A stretch of DNA of 64,000 nt, taken from positions 1 to 64,000 of the forward strand of contig JAHLWR010000001.1 of assembly GCA_019057815.1 (NCBI GenBank), written 5' to 3'. This document shows positions 11,539 to 54,533 of this stretch, piece after piece. The notes under the pieces are model-generated. The model did no database searches. It saw nothing but the letters and a program-made list of their open reading frames with translations, and was not told the origin of the DNA. Source of the DNA: Candidatus Heimdallarchaeota archaeon (GTDB taxonomy: Archaea; Asgardarchaeota; Heimdallarchaeia; Heimdallarchaeales; Heimdallarchaeaceae). A program made the position numbers and the translations under genes. Every line of letters starts with the position of its first letter. Position 1 is the first letter of the stretch.

Positions 11539-11674
11539 TAACGATACACCTACTTAGAGAGATGAGAAATCAATTAAGAAGTTTTCTCAACCTCTATATG
11601 CACTGAGTATAATCTTTAGTCATCCCTGTTCATATTCAGAATCTGCAAAGTATTTTAGACATTTAACTGTTGAT

Positions 11675-13008
11675 AGCAGAAGTCCCCTTACTTTAGGGAG
11701 GGGATGAATGCTAGATGGTTTACTTTAGTATAAACTCAGCTTTTTATACTGAAAAAAGAACTATGAGAATGGACTAATGCTAACATACAAAGTGCAACTG
11801 TACCCTAATAAACAGCAGCAAGCAAAACTTGTTGAACAGTTGGATATTTGTAGAAAACTCTATAATAAGCTACTAGAAGAGTGCAAGAAAGCGCGAGAGA
11901 AGGGAGAAAAACTCACACAAATCAAAACTCAATCTTTTATAGTTTGGCTAAAAAACAACTCTATGCCAGAATTGAAAGGAGTTTATTCTAAAGTTTTACA
12001 GATGGTCAATTACACTCTATGGGCAAATATCAAGAGTCTATCAAAGTTAAAAAAGAGTGGACGTAAAATAGGTCACTTGAGGTTCAAAGGAAAGGGATGG
12101 TACAAAACTATCAATTATAACCAGAGCGGGTTCAAGATAGATGAACACAAAAACAAGCTAATCTTCTCTAAAATAGGAACTATCAATTGTAGAGGACTAG
12201 ATAATAGAGTAAGGAAAAACAAAATTAAAGGGATAATTCTCAAACGTTCTCAAACAGGTAGATGGTTCGCAACTATACAAATAGAAAATACCCCACTGGT
12301 TCTTCCTAAAACCAATAAAAGCGTAGGAATAGATGTTGGTGTTTCTTCGTTTATCGTCGATTCTGATGGGAGAAGCGTAGAGAACCCTAAGAATATAGAC
12401 AAACAATTAAAGAAAATCAAAGTCAAACAACAGACTCTTGCTCGTAAAAAGAAGGGTTCAAAGAACTGGTTAAAAGCCAAGTTACAATTAGCTAAACTTT
12501 TGGCACAAGTTACTAACCAACGTAAAGATTTTTTGCATAAAGTCTCCAGATTTTATGTTAATATTTATGACTTTGTCTGTGTAGAAGACTTGAATATTAT
12601 AGCACTATCACAGAAGGGTAATAAAAATAATAAGCGGTCACGCACTCTTCATCGTCACATTTTAGACGCTTCGTGGGGACAGTTCTTCAACTATTTATCT
12701 TATAAAGCTGTCAATGCTGATAAAAAAGTAGTTAAAGTTCATCCTAAAGGTACTACTCAAGAATGTTCTAGATGTGGAAGAATAGTTAAGAAAAACCTTT
12801 CAACCAGAATACACTTCTGTCCTTATTGTAACTTAGAGCTAGACCGTGATTATAACGCTTCAATCAACATTTTGAAGAGGGGTACGGGATGTTCCTCTAT
12901 ACTTGTGGAGAATAGACCTCTGGTCATTATCAGCGCTTCTGCTATTGTTAGTGGTCAAGTCTTTTCTATGAATCAAGCAACTCCTTCCTTAAGGTAGGAG
13001 TAGTTCAT
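11675..13008 (+). mobile_element. IS200/IS605-family TnpB-only element (IS1341-like), copy 1
   Basis: Left hairpin end (agcagaagtccccttactttagggaggggatgaatgc) and right end (..gtaggagtagttcat) shared with copy 2; no tnpA. Confidence 0.85.
11777..12997 (+). CDS. tnpB: RNA-guided endonuclease TnpB
   Basis: N-terminal YKVQLYP HTH region; RuvC GIDVG / VEDL / DRDYNAS; CSRC..CPYC zinc finger. Confidence 0.95.
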   Translation: MLTYKVQLYPNKQQQAKLVEQLDICRKLYNKLLEECKKAREKGEKLTQIKTQSFIVWLKNNSMPELKGVYSKVLQMVNYTLWANIKSLSKLKKSGRKIGHLRFKGKGWYKTINYNQSGFKIDEHKNKLIFSKIGTINCRGLDNRVRKNKIKGIILKRSQTGRWFATIQIENTPLVLPKTNKSVGIDVGVSSFIVDSDGRSVENPKNIDKQLKKIKVKQQTLARKKKGSKNWLKAKLQLAKLLAQVTNQRKDFLHKVSRFYVNIYDFVCVEDLNIIALSQKGNKNNKRSRTLHRHILDASWGQFFNYLSYKAVNADKKVVKVHPKGTTQECSRCGRIVKKNLSTRIHFCPYCNLELDRDYNASINILKRGTGCSSILVENRPLVIISASAIVSGQVFSMNQATPSLR

Positions 13009-13151
13009 TAAGAGCGTATATCTTATCTAATTATAGGAAGATGGCTTAATATGTTTACTGATTTCAAGATTTCGTATAATACTCTCTTATCCAACTAACT
13101 ATTCATCTGGTAGAAGATATTATGAATATAAGAAGAAAAGAGAAAAGGAGA

Positions 13152-44727: not shown

Positions 44728-45603
44728 ATGAATAAAAAGAAGATTTTACAATTTTTAGAAATTGCATTTCTTATACTGACTATAATCGGCTCGCTAGTTT
44801 TCAGTTTCACTTCAATATCTATTGGAATTCGAAACACATCTCTGAATGTAAGAGAAGGAGATATTCTACGTTTGATAATCCACGCATATGAATTTGATTA
44901 CACCAACACAGGAAATGTGTCACTCTATGATATAGTTGCAGGTATATTTTTGTATCCCTTTGAACTTGAATCTAAACAAGAAATTACTACTGAGGAAACT
45001 GAGAGCTCATCAGGAGAAAATGAAACAACGTATAACGATATAGATTATCCTATGCATAGTGATCGAGATATACCATTATTTGAAGGAAATCTTACTACAA
45101 ATCTAGTAATAACATTTGAAGTAATTGAAAAAATAGATGAAGACCATGCCATTTTACAAATTAAGGAAACTGGAGAAAATTTCACTTTGTGGTTATCTGA
45201 AACTTATAGAGCTCACAATCCATTTGCTTCCCCAAAAATGTATATTGGACTTGTAATAAGAGAAAAAACTAATCTAACACAGAGTTATGTTCATTGGAAT
45301 CCTATAAGCATTTTTTCCAGTAAAACTACAAGAGAAGCTCTCAATTGGATGAGTAGAGAATCAGAGAATATTGCAAATTTTGAAGTTCTTAAACTGTCAA
45401 AGAATCAATTTATGTCACCAACAGGAACAACTTCCGCGGGAGGTAATTATCAGTCTAATACTACCTGGACACTAGTTTCAAATAGTAACAGAATACAGTC
45501 CATTTCTAGTTATTCCCCTACTACTGTAGCTGATGATTTGGTTTGGAGTTTTAGTTATTCTATCGAATTAGAATGGGAATATCCAAAGGAGGGATCTACA
45601 TGA
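44728..45603 (+). CDS. Hypothetical membrane-anchored or secreted protein
   Basis: N-terminal hydrophobic segment; 291-aa ORF. Confidence 0.65.
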   Translation: MNKKKILQFLEIAFLILTIIGSLVFSFTSISIGIRNTSLNVREGDILRLIIHAYEFDYTNTGNVSLYDIVAGIFLYPFELESKQEITTEETESSSGENETTYNDIDYPMHSDRDIPLFEGNLTTNLVITFEVIEKIDEDHAILQIKETGENFTLWLSETYRAHNPFASPKMYIGLVIREKTNLTQSYVHWNPISIFSSKTTREALNWMSRESENIANFEVLKLSKNQFMSPTGTTSAGGNYQSNTTWTLVSNSNRIQSISSYSPTTVADDLVWSFSYSIELEWEYPKEGST

Positions 45604-45821
45604 AGCCAGAATACGTTTTTTATTCTTTATATTCATTGATTGCAATTGAAATGATCATTGGACTAATTCTGAGGAGGTACATCCTCCTTATTTCTTGTCT
45701 TATACTGTTATTCTTTGCGGTCTCGATGAGGATATTACGTTTGATAGAATTTAAGATGCCAAAAAAGAGAAGCATGCTAATTTTTCCCCATTTTTCCCAT
45801 ATTTCTGTTAGCTTTTTATAG
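45600..45821 (+). CDS. Small two-TM membrane protein
   Basis: ATGA overlap with the upstream stop; two hydrophobic segments. Confidence 0.5.
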   Translation: MKPEYVFYSLYSLIAIEMIIGLILRRYILLISCLILLFFAVSMRILRLIEFKMPKKRSMLIFPHFSHISVSFL

Positions 45822-45840
45822 GAAAATCTAATAGAAGTAC

Positions 45841-46077
45841 TGTCTTAAGCCAATGGCTAGAGACAAAGTAGAGTCATCTACTTACACCCGGAGCTGGAGT
45901 GAGAGCCTAAGGTTCTCAATAACATAGTCTTCAGTAATGAGTCCCGGAGAGGAGATGAACCCTCTCACCTCCGCTAACACTGTGTGTTGGAGGTGTAATC
46001 CCAGAGCTTGAAGCTCCCCCTACGCTACTGCTTGATGCGATGCGACCTTAAACGTTCTTGGGTTGGGAAGAGTCCTC
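45841..46077 (+). ncRNA. Putative structured non-coding RNA of unrecognised family
   Basis: Locally GC-rich, no ORF in the track, at least 6 consecutive hairpins; G-U pairs favour the + strand. Confidence 0.6.
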
Positions 46078-46126
46078 AAAATTATTCGTCACTACCCTTA
46101 AGTGGGAAAAGTGGGAAAAATAACTC

Positions 46127-46609
46127 ATGAATTGGACAGATGTACGAACTCTTCTTTACGAAACCCTTGTTGAACAAAAGATTCTTATTAATGGAAAAAA
46201 AGCGATTAAAGGCGGAGCAGGAGGGAAAATCGTTGATTCCATCCAACATGTTGAGGATAATTATTTCAAGGAAAATAAGGCTTTTATTTCAGAATTAAGA
46301 GATATTGGAATTGATGGAATTTTATGCTTATTTTTCCTTATGCAACAAGAACCAGCTCTAACTGCTGTTAAAATCATCCATAAGATACTGCAAATTCCTG
46401 TAGCTTCAACTTATAGAATTATGCAAAAAAATTTGGATAAGGAACTAGTTACACTTCACTATTTAACGAACAAGCCAGGGAAAGCTTACTATCGTATAAC
46501 CGATGAAGGAACTTCTCTAATAATCCAACTTTACGAGCTATTAGGAGGGAAAATAATCCTTCCCTTCTCTAACTCAAAAGCGCAACAAGGCGTAGATGCG
46601 ACAATTTAA
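46127..46609 (+). CDS. Winged-helix (MarR-like) DNA-binding protein
   Basis: IHKILQIPVASTYRIMQK..DKELV HTH and YRITDEG wing. Confidence 0.75.
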   Translation: MNWTDVRTLLYETLVEQKILINGKKAIKGGAGGKIVDSIQHVEDNYFKENKAFISELRDIGIDGILCLFFLMQQEPALTAVKIIHKILQIPVASTYRIMQKNLDKELVTLHYLTNKPGKAYYRITDEGTSLIIQLYELLGGKIILPFSNSKAQQGVDATI

Positions 46610-46703
46610 TAATAAAATGTAAAAAGAAGTTCTTTCTTTTTCCATCATTTTTCTTTACTCTGATCTTAATGACGAGGAAGTGTCACTTTCTTTTTTTAAT
46701 GAT

Positions 46704-47108
46704 TTATTCATACAATAGCGCTTTTTCTGGACAATATTTCACACACTGTGGTTCGCCTTCACATAAATCACAAGTTATTGCAACATTGTTTACGGGGTGT
46801 ATGTACATGACCCCAAAAGGACAAGCAAGCACACATTCTCTGCAACCTGTGCACTTTCCACTATCTATTTGAACAGCACCAGTTTTTTCAGATTTAGATA
46901 TAGCTCCCTCTGGACATGATTCTACGCATTTATAACAAAATCTACATACATTAGGTACAGCTATACCTTCCTTTTCATTTTTCTTTACTCTAATACGGGA
47001 ATGTGATGGAGCATAAAATCTTTCGTGAAAAAATGAACAACGCAATTCACATATTCTACAACCATTGCATTTTTCTTTTATTACAGATATACGTTTTATT
47101 TGAGTCAT
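46704..47108 (-). CDS. 4Fe-4S dicluster (HydN/DmsB-like) electron-transfer subunit
   Basis: Four Cys clusters (CNGCRICELRC, CRFCYKCVESCP, CTGCRECVLACP, CDLC...CVKYCP). Confidence 0.92.
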   Translation of the reverse strand: MTQIKRISVIKEKCNGCRICELRCSFFHERFYAPSHSRIRVKKNEKEGIAVPNVCRFCYKCVESCPEGAISKSEKTGAVQIDSGKCTGCRECVLACPFGVMYIHPVNNVAITCDLCEGEPQCVKYCPEKALLYE

Positions 47109-47118
47109 TTTTTCACCT

Positions 47119-49038
47119 TCAAATCAAATCAAAGCGTTCTGCCATTTCTAATAATCCTAATTCTTCCAATTTTTCTTTCAAAGGATAACCTGTCTCGGCA
47201 TCCCATTTTCTTAATGCATAATATTCTGGAAGCATTTTATCCAATTCTACTTTTTGACCCTTTGCTGGTCCATCAGGAAGTGGTTCATCTGTAAAACGTT
47301 TGGGTAAATAGTCTTGTTTTTCTCCCATTCCTTCTCTTTGATTGAAAAGCCTCTCAAGATTATATATTCTTTCACCAATCTTAAGCACGTCATCTGCGTC
47401 TATTTTCATCCCAGTTGCATAAGAGATGAATTTGGCCATATCTTCTGGTTTAACTGCGTATGCAGAAAAACATGTGTATTTGCACATTTCTGCTGAATCT
47501 ACTACAGCACCCAAATTTTCATGCCACACAACCATTCTTGCTTTACTTTCCCATGCATAAGGATCTACAGCTTTTTTGGAACCAAACCACTCTATACCCT
47601 TTTCTTCAGGATAACCTAGCAGCTCGAAATTTGGTAAAGCTGTAAGATGATCAGCTCCTCTGTTTGCTGTCGCCCATCCTAAGCCAAAAGCTTTGGCAAT
47701 TCTTACATCATAAGCAGGAGGTTCCATACCTTTAACGTGTAAAGCGTATTCTTCCGAACCTTTGTTAATTTTTTCAGCTACACGTTTCGTTCCCTCCGCT
47801 AGTAAATCTCCTATTCCTTCTCTCTTTGCTATTTTTGTTATGAGTTTAATGACTGCTTCTTCATTACCCCAAACAAGTTCTAATCCATCTGTGTTTTCTT
47901 TTGTTAATACGCCTTTTTCATATGCTTCCATCGCAAAAGCGATTGTATCCCCTAATGATATAGTATCCATACCATATCTGTTGGCAAGTTCATTAGCATA
48001 AATTACTGCATCCAAATTACCTATTCCACATTTTGAACCTAAACAGATAATCGTTTCATATTCAGGGCTCCCACCTTTTGTTCCTTTGTATGGACCTTCT
48101 TTTACTTCAGAATATTTTCCACAATGAATTGGACAAGCAAAACAGCTTTCAGACTTGACTTTATATTTCTCATAAAAGGTTTCAGCTGAAAGACCTTCAT
48201 ACTTGTCAAAGGTACCGAATTGATTATTATTCGTAGCTAAACCTCCACCGATATAGGATAAATCTACTAAGAAAGAGGTTCCATATTCAGATAAACTTGG
48301 ATAAGCAGGATCAGTGTAAATTTTTTCTAAAGTTTCTTCAATTAGTAAGTCAAACTTCGCTGGTTCAGCTACAGTTACAGCTCCGGTGCCTTTAACAGCT
48401 ATAGATTTAAGATTCTTTGAACCCATGACAGCTCCTACTCCAGTCCTAGCCGCTGCTCGTGAAAGATTATTCAGAATAGCTGCGTATCGAACCAAGTTTT
48501 CCCCTGCTTGACCGATAGAGAGAATTTGAATATCATCTATATCGATTTCTTTTCTAAGCATTTCATCTGTTTCCCAAGTATCCTTCCCCCACAAATTAGT
48601 GGCTTCTCGAATTTCAACAATTTCACCTTCTATAAAAATATACACAGGTTTTTCTGCTTTTCCATGAACAAAAATCGCATCATAACCAGCATAGGCTAGC
48701 TCAGGAGCAAAATGTCCTCCAGCATTCGAATAACCAATACAACCGGTTAAAGGGGATTTGGTAGCAATGGTATACCTGTTAGAAGAGGGAGCTAGTGTTC
48801 CAGTAAGGGGACCAGTACTTATAACGAGAATATTATTTGGACTAAAAGGTTCTGTGCCTTTAGGTAAATTATCAAATAGATATTTAATCGCGATACCCCT
48901 CCCACCTAAGTAATTTTCAATAATAGAATGATCTATTGCTTTCTTCTGAATTTCTCCATTAGACAGGTTTACAATTAGAACTTGACCTCTATATCCTTTA
49001 TATTTTGGAATGGTACCTTTCAATGTAAAATAAGTCAC
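47119..49038 (-). CDS. aor: Aldehyde:ferredoxin oxidoreductase (tungsten/pterin family)
   Basis: TKSPLTG, GAVMGSKNLK, CFACPIHC, PEYET, GMDTIS and RGADH motifs. Confidence 0.95.
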   Translation of the reverse strand: MTYFTLKGTIPKYKGYRGQVLIVNLSNGEIQKKAIDHSIIENYLGGRGIAIKYLFDNLPKGTEPFSPNNILVISTGPLTGTLAPSSNRYTIATKSPLTGCIGYSNAGGHFAPELAYAGYDAIFVHGKAEKPVYIFIEGEIVEIREATNLWGKDTWETDEMLRKEIDIDDIQILSIGQAGENLVRYAAILNNLSRAAARTGVGAVMGSKNLKSIAVKGTGAVTVAEPAKFDLLIEETLEKIYTDPAYPSLSEYGTSFLVDLSYIGGGLATNNNQFGTFDKYEGLSAETFYEKYKVKSESCFACPIHCGKYSEVKEGPYKGTKGGSPEYETIICLGSKCGIGNLDAVIYANELANRYGMDTISLGDTIAFAMEAYEKGVLTKENTDGLELVWGNEEAVIKLITKIAKREGIGDLLAEGTKRVAEKINKGSEEYALHVKGMEPPAYDVRIAKAFGLGWATANRGADHLTALPNFELLGYPEEKGIEWFGSKKAVDPYAWESKARMVVWHENLGAVVDSAEMCKYTCFSAYAVKPEDMAKFISYATGMKIDADDVLKIGERIYNLERLFNQREGMGEKQDYLPKRFTDEPLPDGPAKGQKVELDKMLPEYYALRKWDAETGYPLKEKLEELGLLEMAERFDLI

Positions 49039-52713: not shown

Positions 52714-52768
52714 AACCTTTAATCCTTCCTTTTTTTCTTTTAGTAAAAATAGAACGTTTTATTTATTC

Positions 52769-54111
52769 ATGAACTACTCCTACCTAAAGGTAGGCGTTTC
52801 TTGATTCATTGAAAAGACTTGTCCACTGATGATTGCCGAAGCAGTAAGAGTGAACAGGGGTCTGTTCTCCACAAGTAAAGAGGTATGTCCCTTACGCCTC
52901 TTCAAAATGTTTATTGAAGCGTTATAGTCACGGTCTAGCTCTAAGCCACAATAAGGACAAGAGTGTGTCCTATCATTTAATGTCTTGGGGACTATCTCTC
53001 CACATCTGGAACATTCTTGAGTAGTGCCTCTAGGAGGAACTTTAACTAGTTCTTTATCAGCGTTTACAGCTTTATAAGCTAAATAGTTGAAGAATATTCC
53101 CCACGAAGCGTCGAGAATGTTACGATGGAGTGTGCGTGACCGCTTGTGTTTCTTATTTCCGTTCTGTGTGAGTCCTTTAATATTCAAGTTTTCCACACAG
53201 ATAATATCATAATTATCTACATAAAAGTTTGAGACTTTATGTAAGAAGTCTTTACGCTGGTCAACAGCTTTAGTGTAGAGTTTAGCCAACTGATATTTGG
53301 CTTTTAACCAATTCTTTGAACCTTGCTTTTTACGACTAAGAGATTTGTGCTTATTTTTAAGTTTCTTTAATTGTCTTTCTATGTTTTTAGGATTCTCTAT
53401 CTCTCGTCCATCCGAATCCACTGCGTAAGAATTTATCCCTACATCTATCCCTACGCTTTTAGAGGTTTTAGGAAGAGATATAGGAGCGTTCTCTACTTGT
53501 ATATTAGCGAACCATCTACCTGTTTGAGAACGTTTGAGTATTATGCCCTTGACTTTGTTTGTACGTATACGATTGTTTAATCCTCTACAATTGATAGTAC
53601 CTATCTTAGAAAAGGTTAGTTTATTTTTGTTTTCATCTATCTTGAATCCACTCTGGTTATAGTTGATAGTCTTGTACCATCCTTTTCCTTTGAAACGTAA
53701 GTGACCGATCTTATGTCCATTCTTCTTTAATTGTGCTAGACTTTTGATATTTGTCCATAGAGTGTAATTGACCATCTGTAAAACTTTAGAATATACCCCT
53801 TTCAATTCAGGCATAGAACTGTTTTTTAGCCCCACGATAAAAGATTGAGTTTTGATTTGTGTGAGTTTTTCTCCCTTCTCTCACGCTTTTTTGCGCTCTT
53901 CTAATAGCTTATTATAGAGTTTTCTGCAAATATCCAACTGTTCAATGAGTGTGGCTTGTTGCTGTTTATTAGGGTACAGTTGCACTTTGTAGGTTAACAT
54001 CAGTTCATTTCCTTATTTCCTTAGTACTTTTTTCACTATAAAAAGACGAGTATATGCTAAAGTGATGTTTCTATCGCATTCATCCCCACCTAAAGTTAGG
54101 GGATTTCTGCT
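52769..54111 (-). mobile_element. IS200/IS605-family TnpB-only element, copy 2
   Basis: Left end (agcagaaatcccctaactttaggtggggatgaatgc) and right end (gtaggagtagttcat) homologous to copy 1. Confidence 0.85.
52780..54000 (-). pseudogene. tnpB: tnpB with a nonsense mutation at codon 40
   Basis: ATG at 54000 aligns with the copy 1 start; CGA (Arg40) in copy 1 is TGA here (53883-53881); the rest of the frame is open. Confidence 0.88.
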
Positions 54112-54122
54112 ATGCTCAATAT

Positions 54123-54533
54123 TTAAAAGTCTTCAGCAGTAGCAGATTCTTCTTTTTTCTTCACTACTTCAGCTGCATCTGCTTCTTTTTGTGCTTCCTG
54201 AACTTTTTGCTCTCTTTTGTTTAACTCTTGTTCTTTATCTGCAATTTTTACTTCAAGTTCGCGTATTTTAAGTTCTTTCTCAGCAATTGAAGCTTCTATT
54301 TTCTTAACAGCAACTTCTAGCTTAAAGGCTTTATCTGGTCGCCCTTTTTCTTTTTCTTCTGCAGCTTTCATTAGTTTTTCTTCAATTGACTTGTAATCCT
54401 TGAAACTCTTCTTATGTTGAGATGCGACTTTTTTCCTAAGATCTTGGATGTCTTTAAGAGTGTCATAAATATCCATTTCCAAATCATATTGCTCTTCACG
54501 CAATTCATAATACTTCTTTCCTTCTTCACTCAT
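54123..54533 (-). CDS. Coiled-coil hypothetical protein
   Basis: Lys/Glu-rich heptad pattern. Confidence 0.75.
   Translation of the reverse strand: MSEEGKKYYELREEQYDLEMDIYDTLKDIQDLRKKVASQHKKSFKDYKSIEEKLMKAAEEKEKGRPDKAFKLEVAVKKIEASIAEKELKIRELEVKIADKEQELNKREQKVQEAQKEADAAEVVKKKEESATAEDF

What the first reader, a model, noticed from the sequence alone, without database searches (positions are those of the whole stretch)
45781..46609. Unrecognised multi-hairpin RNA-like element bracketed by inverted repeats, directly upstream of a winged-helix gene
About 240 bp that are far more GC-rich than their surroundings fold into back-to-back stems: tgtct..agcc-aat-ggct..agaca (45841-45865); aagtaga-gtca-tctactt (45866-45883); tgagagcc-taa-ggttctca (45900-45918) enclosed by ctggag/cttcag; gagagg..cctctc (45947-45966); cacctcc..aacac-tgt-gtgtt-ggaggtg (45966-45995); gagctt-g-aagctc (46004-46016). 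G-U pairs work on the + strand. The block is flanked by near-inverted repeats, tttttccccatttttcccat (45781-45800) and gtgggaaaagtgggaaaaa (46102-46120), and the latter ends 6 bp before the wHTH start codon. I cannot match it to tRNA, SRP RNA or RNase P RNA. Inference: a novel ncRNA or leader RNA functionally tied to the wHTH protein, or the folded end/origin of a small mobile element.
Basis: partly seen in the sequence, partly recalled or inferred. Interest (0 to 1): 0.75.

Follow-up and report, generated by a model that had tools for sequence, protein, structure and literature searches.

The report
Guide-RNA-only TnpB mini-transposon splitting a gene
The GC-rich folded block is the guide-RNA (omega RNA) part of a 353-base, gene-less copy of a jumping element that elsewhere in this Asgard archaeon's genome encodes the RNA-guided nuclease TnpB; it landed inside a membrane-anchored winged-helix gene and is not a control RNA for that gene.

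Summary
There is a 47-54% GC block in a 33% GC genome, the hairpins are at the stated coordinates, and the inverted TGGGAAAA-dimer repeats are real. No Rfam family or tRNA/tmRNA matches.

The interpretation changes. The block and its repeats form a 353-bp repeat unit (45776-46128). This Heimdallarchaeota genome has six such short copies and five 1.78-kb copies. The long copies carry a 488-492 aa TnpB gene between the same ends, and the block covers the last 23 tnpB codons plus about 220 nt up to the right end, as a TnpB omega RNA does.

- Conservation stops exactly at ...CTCAT, where the guide would start.
- 20 copies from 7 genomes give 12 compensatory pairs against 2.8 in shuffles.
- The scaffold core evolves about ten times slower than tnpB synonymous sites.
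- The short form joins the TATA-box promoter directly to the scaffold.

The link to the wHTH gene is accidental. A same-genus genome has the empty site, and the two flanking ORFs align end to end, at one Met, with an intact 226-aa two-TM plus PadR-like homologue.

The element has 26-bp terminal inverted repeats, not IS605 hairpins, and no enzyme that moves it was found. The scan already reached this reading on other copies in this genome.

The parts
45573..45776 (+). 5' fragment of the split host gene (two hydrophobic helices). Its frame now runs on into the element and stops at TAG 45819-45821.
   Evidence: Aligns to residues 9-67 of the intact 226-aa homologue L055:1303-1980 (53% identity, E 4e-16). 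ORF list.
45773..45775 (+). CAT of the target site. It is identical to the element's last three bases and present once in the empty site. It is the candidate TAM core.
   Evidence: Junction alignments and the empty site in G001. The base before CAT is never T in 19 distinct sites.
45776..46128 (+). The 353-bp gene-less mini-element (left end, promoter, omega RNA scaffold, right end).
   Evidence: Repeat limits from 11 genomic copies and copies in relatives. Absent from the orthologous site in G001.
45776..45803 (+). Left terminal inverted repeat with two tandem TTTTCCCCA-type units (45781-45800).
   Evidence: Conserved in all copies. It is the reverse complement of the right end. The unit changes in the same way at both ends in a 63%-identity sister family.
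45813..45820 (+). TATA-like box (TTTTTATA) of the tnpB promoter. In this copy it would start transcription near 45840-45845 (inferred).
   Evidence: CTTTTTATAG is conserved upstream of tnpB in this family and in relatives with 43-64% TnpB identity. The distance to the tnpB ATG in long copies fits a leaderless archaeal mRNA. No transcript data.
45840..45910 (+). Remnant of the last 23 codons of tnpB plus its stop (TAA 45908-45910). It begins at the deletion junction 45839/45840.
   Evidence: tblastn-type match to TnpB residues 466-488, 83% identity. The junction is shared by all short copies.
45840..46128 (+). Omega RNA scaffold. It contains an almost neutral variable loop at about 46012-46053.
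   Evidence: Covariation: 12 pairs with changes on both sides against 2.8 +/- 1.2 in shuffles (0/500) and 2-5 in slid controls. G-U pairs work only on the + strand. Core K = 0.03-0.05 against dS 0.35-0.42. Motifs are kept in relatives down to 55% TnpB identity.
46102..46128 (+). Right terminal inverted repeat (two TGGGAAAA units) ending in TAACTCAT. This is also the 3' end of the scaffold.
46129..46148 (+). Predicted guide of this copy's omega RNA: the first ~20 nt of flanking DNA, GAATTGGACAGATGTACGAA. The length is assumed from known TnpB systems.
   Evidence: Conservation among all copies ends abruptly after CAT, and each copy has a different sequence here. Guide function is inferred, not shown.
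46127..46609 (+). 3' fragment of the split host gene (PadR-like winged helix). Its ATG is the internal Met codon of the ancestral gene.
   Evidence: Aligns to residues 67-221 of L055:1303-1980 (50% identity, E 3e-55). Weak PadR match (0.03), stronger in the intact homologue (2.2e-5).

Best explanation
Window 45776-46128 is a non-autonomous, gene-less derivative of a 1.78-kb TnpB-only insertion element of a Heimdallarchaeota archaeon.

Anatomy of the full-length element:
- 26-bp terminal inverted repeats.
- A TATA-box promoter in the left end.
- A leaderless tnpB gene of 488-492 aa.
- An omega RNA of about 290 nt. It starts inside the last 23 codons of tnpB and ends at the right boundary (...TAACTCAT). 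Transcription would then continue into the flanking DNA, which supplies the guide.

The short form arose once, by a deletion running from the tnpB start codon to the 5' end of the scaffold. The promoter now drives the omega RNA directly.

Inferred mechanism: the RNA is bound in trans by TnpB made by one of the three intact full-length copies. The complex recognises the empty site (a CAT-containing TAM followed by GAATTGGACAG...) and cuts it. Recombination with a filled copy then restores the element, which is the retention/homing role shown for TnpB in IS605-type elements.

This copy inserted at an internal Met codon (..AGC CAT|G AAT..) of a gene for a two-TM, PadR-like winged-helix protein and split it. 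The position 'upstream of a wHTH gene' is therefore an accident of insertion.

Shown here: the repeat family, the TnpB gene, boundaries, empty site, split gene, RNA covariation and purifying selection.
Inferred: transcription, TnpB binding, guide use, the TAM, and which enzyme moves the element.
For: 1. Repeat family.
- The genome has 11 copies at 86-100% identity. Six are about 355 bp. Five have the left ~70 bp and right ~290 bp separated by ~1.42 kb.

2. The 1.42 kb encodes TnpB.
- Pfam Cas12f1-like_TNB, 2.5e-13 (above cut-off). NCBIfam guided_TnpB, 1.3e-21 over positions 26-389 of 389 (below that model's cut-off).
- PDB sequence hits are TnpB and Cas12f chains.
- Three copies are intact and two are broken.
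- dN/dS is 0.13-0.21. GIDLG, the CxxC..CxxC zinc finger and NADLNGAKNIA are conserved.

3. Position of the block.
- It overlaps TnpB residues 466-488 and ends at the right boundary. Similarity among 20+ copies stops there within one base.

4. RNA signal.
- + strand fold z = -2.0 against -0.4 for the - strand.
- 97.4% of cells are paired. 12 pairs have changes on both sides, against 2.8 +/- 1.2 in shuffles (0/500) and 2-5 in slid controls. These controls can overstate significance for related sequences, as the tool warns.
- Several pairs alternate G-C/G-U or A-U/G-U, which only works on the + strand.
- The non-coding core has K = 0.03-0.05 against dS 0.35-0.42 in the adjoining ORF. An internal loop has K = 0.30-0.68.
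- Hairpins change by compensatory substitutions in relatives with 55-63% TnpB identity.

5. Mobility and boundaries.
- Flanks differ at every copy.
- The C38 and C9 copies are 99.4% identical.
- The G001 orthologue carries ...GAAAAG CAT TAATTGGACAG with no element.

6. Split gene.

7. The kind is known.
- PATE-like gene-less elements that often encode omega RNAs to be used in trans are described by Meers et al. (10.1101/2023.03.14.532601).
- TnpB elements with symmetrical ends and Asgard-specific TnpB groups are described in PMC10691335.
Against: - There are no transcript data, so the promoter, RNA ends and guide length are inferred.
- The TnpB matches NCBIfam's guided_TnpB model only below its curated cut-off (77 against 100 bits).
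- The position where the RuvC-II glutamate is expected reads Gly (VVVGFP). Activity therefore depends on a relocated glutamate, as proposed for RIIr clades in PMC10691335. I did not test this by structure.
- The ends are terminal inverted repeats, not the subterminal hairpins of IS200/IS605. Single-strand DNA folds of the ends are no better than shuffles.
- No transposase with matching ends was found in this assembly or in 40 relatives.
- If the mover is a cut-and-paste enzyme that leaves footprints, the 'cut the scarless empty site' model would need changing.
- The long-range part of the fold differs between two alignments. Most of those pairs never vary, so they carry no comparative evidence.
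Confidence: 0.88

Rival explanations
1. The block is a cis-acting leader or a regulatory ncRNA that belongs to the wHTH gene. The wHTH protein would bind the TGGGAAAA repeats.
For: The repeat ends 6 bp before an ATG that opens a 160-aa winged-helix ORF on the same strand. Read-through from the element's promoter would carry that ORF.
Against: - Ten other copies in the same genome lie next to unrelated DNA.
- The genome has only one such wHTH gene.
- wHTH homologues in 10 related genomes lack the block.
- The same-genus orthologue has an empty site.
- The ATG is an internal Met of a 226-aa protein in the intact homologue.
Confidence: 0.03
2. The conserved interior is a DNA-level signal (transposase binding sites, a recombination site or an origin) and not an RNA. 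The hairpins would matter as single-stranded DNA or not at all.
For: - The outer 26 bp at each end are clearly DNA signals (inverted repeats).
- Their repeat unit changes in the same way at both ends in a sister family.
- No transcript data exist.
Against: - Compensatory changes keep pairs in the interior.
- G-U alternations make the pairs strand-specific.
- The block has the position and length of a TnpB omega RNA, overlapping the 3' end of tnpB.
- The short form keeps exactly promoter plus block.
- Single-strand DNA folds of the ends are not better than shuffles.
Confidence: 0.05
3. The insertion has been co-opted. The element's promoter now expresses the soluble C-terminal wHTH fragment, freed of its membrane anchor, so the element acts as a new promoter and leader for a truncated regulator.
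For: - The internal ATG is rebuilt at the junction, and the 160-aa frame is intact.
- Transcription of the omega RNA must run into this ORF.
- The fragment is 96% identical to the G001 orthologue.
Against: - The insertion looks recent. This copy is 99.4% identical to the C9 copy, so an intact frame needs no selection.
- There is no sign of a ribosome-binding site or of conservation of this arrangement in any other genome.
Confidence: 0.04

Closest known systems
PATE-like gene-less derivatives of TnpB/IscB IS elements that carry only the ends and an omega RNA (Geobacillus stearothermophilus ISGst families; Meers et al., 10.1101/2023.03.14.532601)
   Same: - No protein gene, and the same ends as full-length tnpB elements in the same genome.
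- Several copies at different sites.
- Retains the omega RNA, which would have to be used in trans by TnpB encoded elsewhere.
   Different: - The ends here are 26-bp terminal inverted repeats made of two tandem 9-10-bp units, not subterminal palindromic hairpins.
- No Y1 TnpA with matching ends is present.
- The deletion joins the archaeal TATA-box promoter directly to the first base of the scaffold.
- The host is an Asgard archaeon.
TnpB-omega RNA (OMEGA) systems of IS200/IS605-type elements such as ISDra2 (named from my own knowledge; general description in PMC10691335)
   Same: - The RNA overlaps the 3' end of tnpB and ends at the right boundary.
- The guide comes from flanking DNA.
- A short conserved motif lies next to the left end (a TAM candidate).
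- RuvC-I, zinc finger and RuvC-III motifs are present.
   Different: - The scaffold is about 290 nt, longer than the ~130-150 nt I recall for ISDra2.
- The protein is 488-492 aa, and Gly stands where the RuvC-II Glu is expected.
- RuvC-III has the NADxN form of 'derived' TnpBs.
- The ends are not IS605-like.
TnpB elements with symmetrical ends linked to DDE transposases, and the Asgard Cas1-linked TnpB groups (PMC10691335)
   Same: - Inverted, symmetrical ends.
- The tnpB 3' end lies within 250 bp of the element end.
- Asgard host.
- Solo tnpB copies are presumed to be moved in trans.
   Different: - No DDE or Cas1 gene lies inside or next to any copy.
- This genome has no DDE_3 (IS630-type) match, and its four DDE_Tnp_1 genes have unrelated ends.
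- The GTTCACTCA motif described downstream of the Cas1-linked group is not seen in the flanks.
The classical IS605-type TnpB-only family of the same genome (about 10 copies of 1.35 kb, two of them in this window)
   Same: TnpB-only, multi-copy, with a defined target motif.
   Different: That family has a 406-aa TnpB, a TTTAA target, and GC-rich subterminal hairpins at both ends on one strand. It shows what real IS605 ends look like in this genome and that the element studied here lacks them.

Membership tests
TnpB / omega RNA (OMEGA) system | A TnpB-family protein (RuvC-like nuclease with zinc finger) encoded by the element | tested here: met
   This holds for the full-length copies, not for this copy. 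Pfam PF07282 at 2.5e-13 is above cut-off. NCBIfam guided_TnpB at 1.3e-21 covers the whole model but scores below its cut-off. PDB sequence hits are TnpB/Cas12f. The motifs are conserved and dN/dS is 0.13-0.21.
TnpB / omega RNA (OMEGA) system | A complete RuvC catalytic triad (D, E, D) | tested here: inconclusive
   The D of GIDLG and the D of NADLN are present. The strand where the Glu is expected reads VVVGFP in all copies. PMC10691335 describes large clades with this Glu-to-Gly change and a relocated Glu. No structure was predicted here.
TnpB / omega RNA (OMEGA) system | A structured non-coding RNA that overlaps the 3' end of tnpB and ends at the element boundary | tested here: met
   Overlap with TnpB residues 466-488. 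Covariation and strand-specific G-U pairs. Strong purifying selection on the non-coding core. Conservation in distant relatives. That the RNA is actually made was not tested.
TnpB / omega RNA (OMEGA) system | A guide taken from DNA flanking the right end, and a TAM next to the left end | tested here: inconclusive
   Similarity ends within one base after ...CTCAT, and each copy has a unique sequence there. The left flank always ends in CAT, preceded by G, A or C and never T, in 19 sites. The element's own right end has T at that position. Cleavage and TAM use cannot be tested with these tools.
IS200/IS605 family (ISfinder sense) | Subterminal imperfect palindromes (hairpins) at both ends on one strand, and no terminal inverted repeats | tested here: not met
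   The ends are 26-bp inverted repeats. Single-strand DNA folds of the ends give -2 to -7 kcal/mol, within the range of shuffles. The true IS605-type family of this genome has clear hairpins.
IS200/IS605 family (ISfinder sense) | Mobilised by a Y1 (HUH) TnpA with matching ends | tested here: not met
   The genome has two Y1_Tnp genes, but the end motif of this element occurs only in this family. The assembly is 95% complete in 48 contigs, so absence is not proven.
Gene-less (PATE/MITE-like) derivative of a TnpB element | Same ends as a full-length element, no ORF, and several copies at different sites | tested here: met
   Six short copies in this genome, and others in two related genomes, share one deletion junction and have different flanks. 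An empty site exists for this copy.
Rfam families / tRNA / tmRNA | A match to a curated covariance model | tested here: not met
   No hit at gathering score in 64 kb. Only chance-level hits at E up to 10. ARAGORN found none.

The most novel reading that the evidence does not exclude
This Asgard-wide TnpB lineage may ride on a so far undescribed type of transposon. Three features point that way:
- The ends are 26-bp terminal inverted repeats built from two tandem 9-10-bp units, and the units co-vary between the two ends across sister families.
- Insertion is next to CAT, with CAT at both junctions.
- No Y1, serine, DDE or Cas1 gene is linked to any copy.
Either an unrecognised transposase or a host enzyme moves it.

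Its promoter-plus-guide-RNA miniatures could then act as free-standing guide units for TnpB supplied in trans. That would be a step towards an array-like, multi-guide system.
Probability: 0.15. Interest if true: 0.6.

Novelty: new member of a known kind. Interest (0 to 1): 0.3.

Why it matters
For annotation, this removes a false lead. The 'structured RNA upstream of a winged-helix regulator' is an insertion, and the two ORFs around it are halves of one disrupted gene. That gene should be annotated as a split membrane-anchored PadR-like protein.

For biology, the case is a clean natural example in an Asgard archaeon of a TnpB guide RNA that has become independent of its nuclease gene. It keeps its own promoter, and an empty site in a sister genome gives the predicted target outright. 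The family's inverted-repeat ends and the missing mobilising enzyme are the only parts not covered by current descriptions. They are worth noting for work on how TnpB moves between transposon types. The kind of element itself is known, and the scan has already reported other copies of it.

Tried and rejected
- Known RNA families. Rfam at gathering score and at E up to 10, and ARAGORN, gave nothing.

- A mover with the same ends.
  - A fuzzy search for the end motif in the genome and in 40 relatives found only this family, plus hits that lie inside long coding frames.
  - Solo left ends in G017 and G024 lie next to a FEN1-like gene, not a transposase.

- Candidate enzymes in this genome.
  - Two Y1_Tnp, six resolvase-type, three Cas1 and four DDE_Tnp_1 genes are present. 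There is no DDE_3 match.
  - None lies next to a copy.
  - The DDE elements have unrelated inverted repeats.

- Survey of genome repeats.
  - Ten of the 16 repeat regions I sampled were scanned against Pfam. Nine are paralogous surface-type proteins (eight NosD/beta-helix, one with Ig-like domains) and one has no Pfam match. None is a recognisable IS.
  - The 1.35-kb family is a classical IS605-type TnpB element with different ends.

- Wider collections.
  - Species-representative genomes gave 5 loci and metagenome contigs gave 4 short loci. All are TnpB-only.
  - Neighbourhoods of relatives with 43-64% identity are also TnpB-only.

- IS605-style DNA hairpins at the ends. The folds are no better than shuffles.

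- Not done.
  - I did not build a covariance model, because a ~290-position model would probably exceed the calibration limit.
  - I did not predict the TnpB structure, so the relocated-glutamate idea is untested.
Full report
**1. The observation**

The sequence is as described. In 100-nt windows, GC rises to 0.47-0.54 between about 45850 and 46100. Neighbouring DNA is 0.27-0.37 and the genome mean is 0.328. Rfam has no match at gathering score anywhere in the 64-kb window, and only chance-level hits in 45500-46400 at E up to 10. ARAGORN finds no tRNA or tmRNA. The + strand of 45830-46110 folds better than shuffles (z = -2.0) and the - strand does not (z = -0.4). The repeats at 45781-45800 and 46102-46120 are inverted copies of each other.

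**2. The block is a repeat, and the long form encodes TnpB**

A search of the window's own genome (3.74 Mb, 48 contigs, 95% complete) with the block found 11 copies at 86-100% identity plus one remnant.
- Six copies are about 355 bp long, including the one in the window.
- In five copies the left ~70 bp and the right ~290 bp are separated by about 1.42 kb.

That insert is one ORF of 488-492 aa on the same strand as the block.
- It matches Pfam Cas12f1-like_TNB (2.5e-13).
- It matches NCBIfam guided_TnpB over the whole model (1.3e-21), although below that model's cut-off.
- Its only relatives among solved structures are TnpB and Cas12f chains.
- Three copies are intact and two carry stops or frameshifts.
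- Intact copies here and in relatives have dN/dS of 0.13-0.21. They keep GIDLG (RuvC-I), a CxxC..CxxC zinc finger and NADLNGAKNIA (RuvC-III).
- The strand where the RuvC-II glutamate is expected reads VVVGFP. PMC10691335 describes large TnpB clades with exactly this Glu-to-Gly change and a relocated glutamate. It also describes the NADxN form as typical of 'derived' TnpBs. I did not test this by structure.

Record titles of the nearest relatives name Candidatus Heimdallarchaeota. The protein family extends, at 34-46% identity, over Heimdall-, Thor- and Lokiarchaeota.

**3. The block is the omega RNA of that element**

Its first ~70 nt are the last 23 codons of tnpB (residues 466-488). The tnpB stop (TAA 45908-45910) sits in the loop of the third hairpin. 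The rest runs to the right boundary. Among more than 20 copies, similarity ends within one base after ...TAACTCAT, and every copy has a different sequence after that. A TnpB omega RNA has this layout: a scaffold inside the element and a guide read from the flank.

An alignment of 20 distinct copies from 7 genomes gave a consensus fold with 70 pairs.
- 97.4% of cells are paired.
- 12 pairs have changes on both sides, against 2.8 +/- 1.2 in column shuffles (0 of 500 reach the observed value) and 2-5 when partners are slid by 1-3 columns. These controls can overstate significance for related sequences, so I read this as moderate support and not as proof.
- Several pairs alternate G-C/G-U or A-U/G-U, which works only on the + strand.
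- Between the three intact long copies, the non-coding core (alignment columns 71-175) differs by K = 0.03-0.05, while synonymous sites of the adjoining ORF differ by 0.35-0.42. An internal stretch (window ~46012-46053) drifts at 0.30-0.68.
- Downstream regions of relatives whose TnpB is only 55-63% identical keep the same motifs (GCCAATGGC, CCGGAGCTGGAG, AATGAGTCCCGG, TGGGTTGGG.AGAGTCCTC). They change the hairpin at 45900-45918 by compensatory substitutions.

The other two, gagagg/cctctc and gagctt/aagctc, are broken in most copies. Long-range pairs replace them: 45949-45953 with 46073-46077, 45960-45962 with 46065-46067, and 46000-46007 with 46054-46062. How the domains close (45937-45946 with the right end, or CCCGG 45887-45891 with CCGGG near 45943-45947) differs between two alignments and has no covariation. 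I leave that open.

**4. The short form**

All short copies, including those in two other genomes, share one junction (...AATAGAAGTA|CTGTCTTAAGCC). In long copies the left part continues ...AATAGAAATA ATG..., the tnpB start. The right part is preceded by tnpB codons. The deletion therefore removed tnpB from its start codon to the first base of the first hairpin.

The left end carries CTTTTTATAG (TATA-like, 45813-45820). This motif is also conserved upstream of tnpB in relatives at 43-64% identity. It lies about 20-25 nt before the tnpB ATG in this family, as expected for a leaderless archaeal mRNA (general knowledge of archaeal promoters, an inference here). In the short form the same promoter would start the RNA at about 45840-45845. 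The miniature is thus 'ends + promoter + guide RNA'.

The copies in C38 and C9 are 99.4% identical, so transposition was recent.

**5. Boundaries, target and empty site**

At the left junction every copy reads flank-CAT|G... At the right junction it reads ...CTCAT|N, where N is G in most copies and A, C or T in the rest.

The same-genus genome G001 has the orthologous region without the element. Window 45300-45782 and 46126-46678 match one continuous stretch of G001, which reads ...GAAAAG CAT TAATTGGACAG with a single CAT. The element is therefore 45776-46128 (353 bp) with CAT at both junctions.

Three explanations fit this pattern, and the data cannot separate them:
- a target motif plus an identical element-terminal motif (the TAM/TEM arrangement of IS605-type elements);
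- a 2-3-bp target duplication;
- a shared crossover site.

The base before the left CAT is G (9), A (6) or C (4) and never T in 19 distinct sites. With T at about one third of bases, the chance of this is about 5e-4. The element's own right end has T there (CTCAT). This would let a TAM of the form [G/A/C]CAT distinguish the empty site from the filled one. That is an inference.

**6. The wHTH gene is a split gene**

The ORF that runs into the left end (45573-45776, then 14 element-encoded codons to TAG 45819-45821) and the 'wHTH gene' (46127-46609) are in the same frame once the 353 bp are removed. The first piece aligns to residues 9-67 (E 4e-16) and the second to residues 67-221 (E 3e-55) of one uninterrupted 226-aa protein of a related genome, L055:1303-1980. 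The two pieces meet at the same Met.

Five other homologues have the same build: an N-terminal hydrophobic region plus a C-terminal domain with weak PadR/HxlR/winged-helix matches. The ATG at 46127 is therefore an internal Met codon rebuilt by the CAT|G junction, not a start codon placed behind a leader.

The genome has only this one homologue. The homologue loci of 10 related genomes do not carry the element.

In G001 the site is empty, but the N-terminal part is in another frame because of a 1-nt difference in an A-run about 15 nt upstream. I cannot tell whether that is real.

**7. What moves it**

The ends are 26-bp terminal inverted repeats, each with two tandem units (TTTTCCCCA[C/T] at the left end and its complement at the right end). 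In the 63%-identity sister family the unit is TTTTCCGAC at the left and GTCGGAA at the right, so both ends changed together. That points to a protein that binds both ends.

Single-strand DNA folds of the ends are no better than shuffles. The genome's classical IS605-type TnpB family (about 10 copies, TTTAA target) has obvious GC-rich hairpins.

The end motif occurs nowhere else in this genome or in 40 relatives, except inside coding frames. The Y1, serine-recombinase, Cas1 and DDE_Tnp_1 genes of the genome are not linked to any copy and have other ends. No IS630-type DDE was found. Relatives in other collections are also TnpB-only.

PMC10691335 reports symmetrical ends for DDE-linked TnpBs, Asgard Cas1-linked TnpB groups, and solo TnpBs moved in trans. 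Trans-mobilisation by an enzyme missing from these incomplete assemblies is therefore the simplest reading, but it is not shown.

**8. Comparison and verdict**

Functionally this is a PATE-like, omega-RNA-only derivative of a TnpB element, a kind described by Meers et al.. It is not a member of IS200/IS605 in the strict sense, because the hairpin ends and a matching Y1 transposase were tested and not met.

Earlier follow-ups of this scan reached the same reading on other copies in this genome. I arrived at mine, before looking them up.

Interest is low to moderate. The feature is real and neatly explained, but it is of a known kind. Only the end type and the missing mover remain unexplained.

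Noticed in passing
window 11661-13011 and 52768-54127: Two copies of a different, classical IS605-type TnpB-only element, present about 10 times in the genome. It is 1.35 kb with a 406-aa TnpB, inserts after TTTAA, and has GC-rich subterminal hairpins at both ends. Two Y1 TnpA genes elsewhere (C8, C4) are the likely movers.
   Followed up: partly
L054 (G001:C195), reverse strand around locus position 1480-1510: In the same-genus genome the insertion site is empty. However, the N-terminal (membrane) part and the wHTH part of the orthologous gene are in different frames, because of a 1-nt difference in an A-run. The site also reads CATT instead of CATG, so no ATG is present. This may be a real frameshift or a MAG error.
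   Followed up: no
L090, L091, L092 (metagenome contigs; TnpB 63% identical): A sister family has the end repeat unit changed in the same way at both ends (TTTTCCGAC at the left, GTCGGAA at the right). It keeps CAT|G at the left junction and TAACTCAT| at the right. Identical proteins have different upstream flanks, so this family is mobile too.
   Followed up: partly
G000:C27:90260-90313; L035 (G017:C69) and L046 (G024:C1): Solo remnants of the element. One is a right-end fragment in C27. The others are orthologous solo left ends next to a FEN1-like (XPG_N/XPG_I) gene in two related genomes.
   Followed up: partly
G000, many contigs (e.g. C7:61276-63765, C18:41173-43301, C30:152-2094): Most of the longer repeats I sampled in this genome are not IS elements but a large paralogous family of NosD/right-handed beta-helix proteins of 240-660 aa.
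   Followed up: partly
window 46704-47108 (-) and 47119-49038 (-): A poly-ferredoxin (4Fe-4S dicluster) gene and an aldehyde:ferredoxin oxidoreductase gene lie just downstream on the opposite strand. They are unrelated to the element.
   Followed up: no
window 45937-45946 with 46111-46115 and 46124-46128: Predicted long-range pairing between AUGAGUCCCG and the last bases of the scaffold (GUGGG ... CUCAU) would bring the guide-proximal end next to the core. The pairs are invariant, so this is untested. A paper in the library reports circular isoforms of archaeal omega RNAs (PMC12558985). I saw only its title and the start of its abstract in the search results and did not open it.
   Followed up: no
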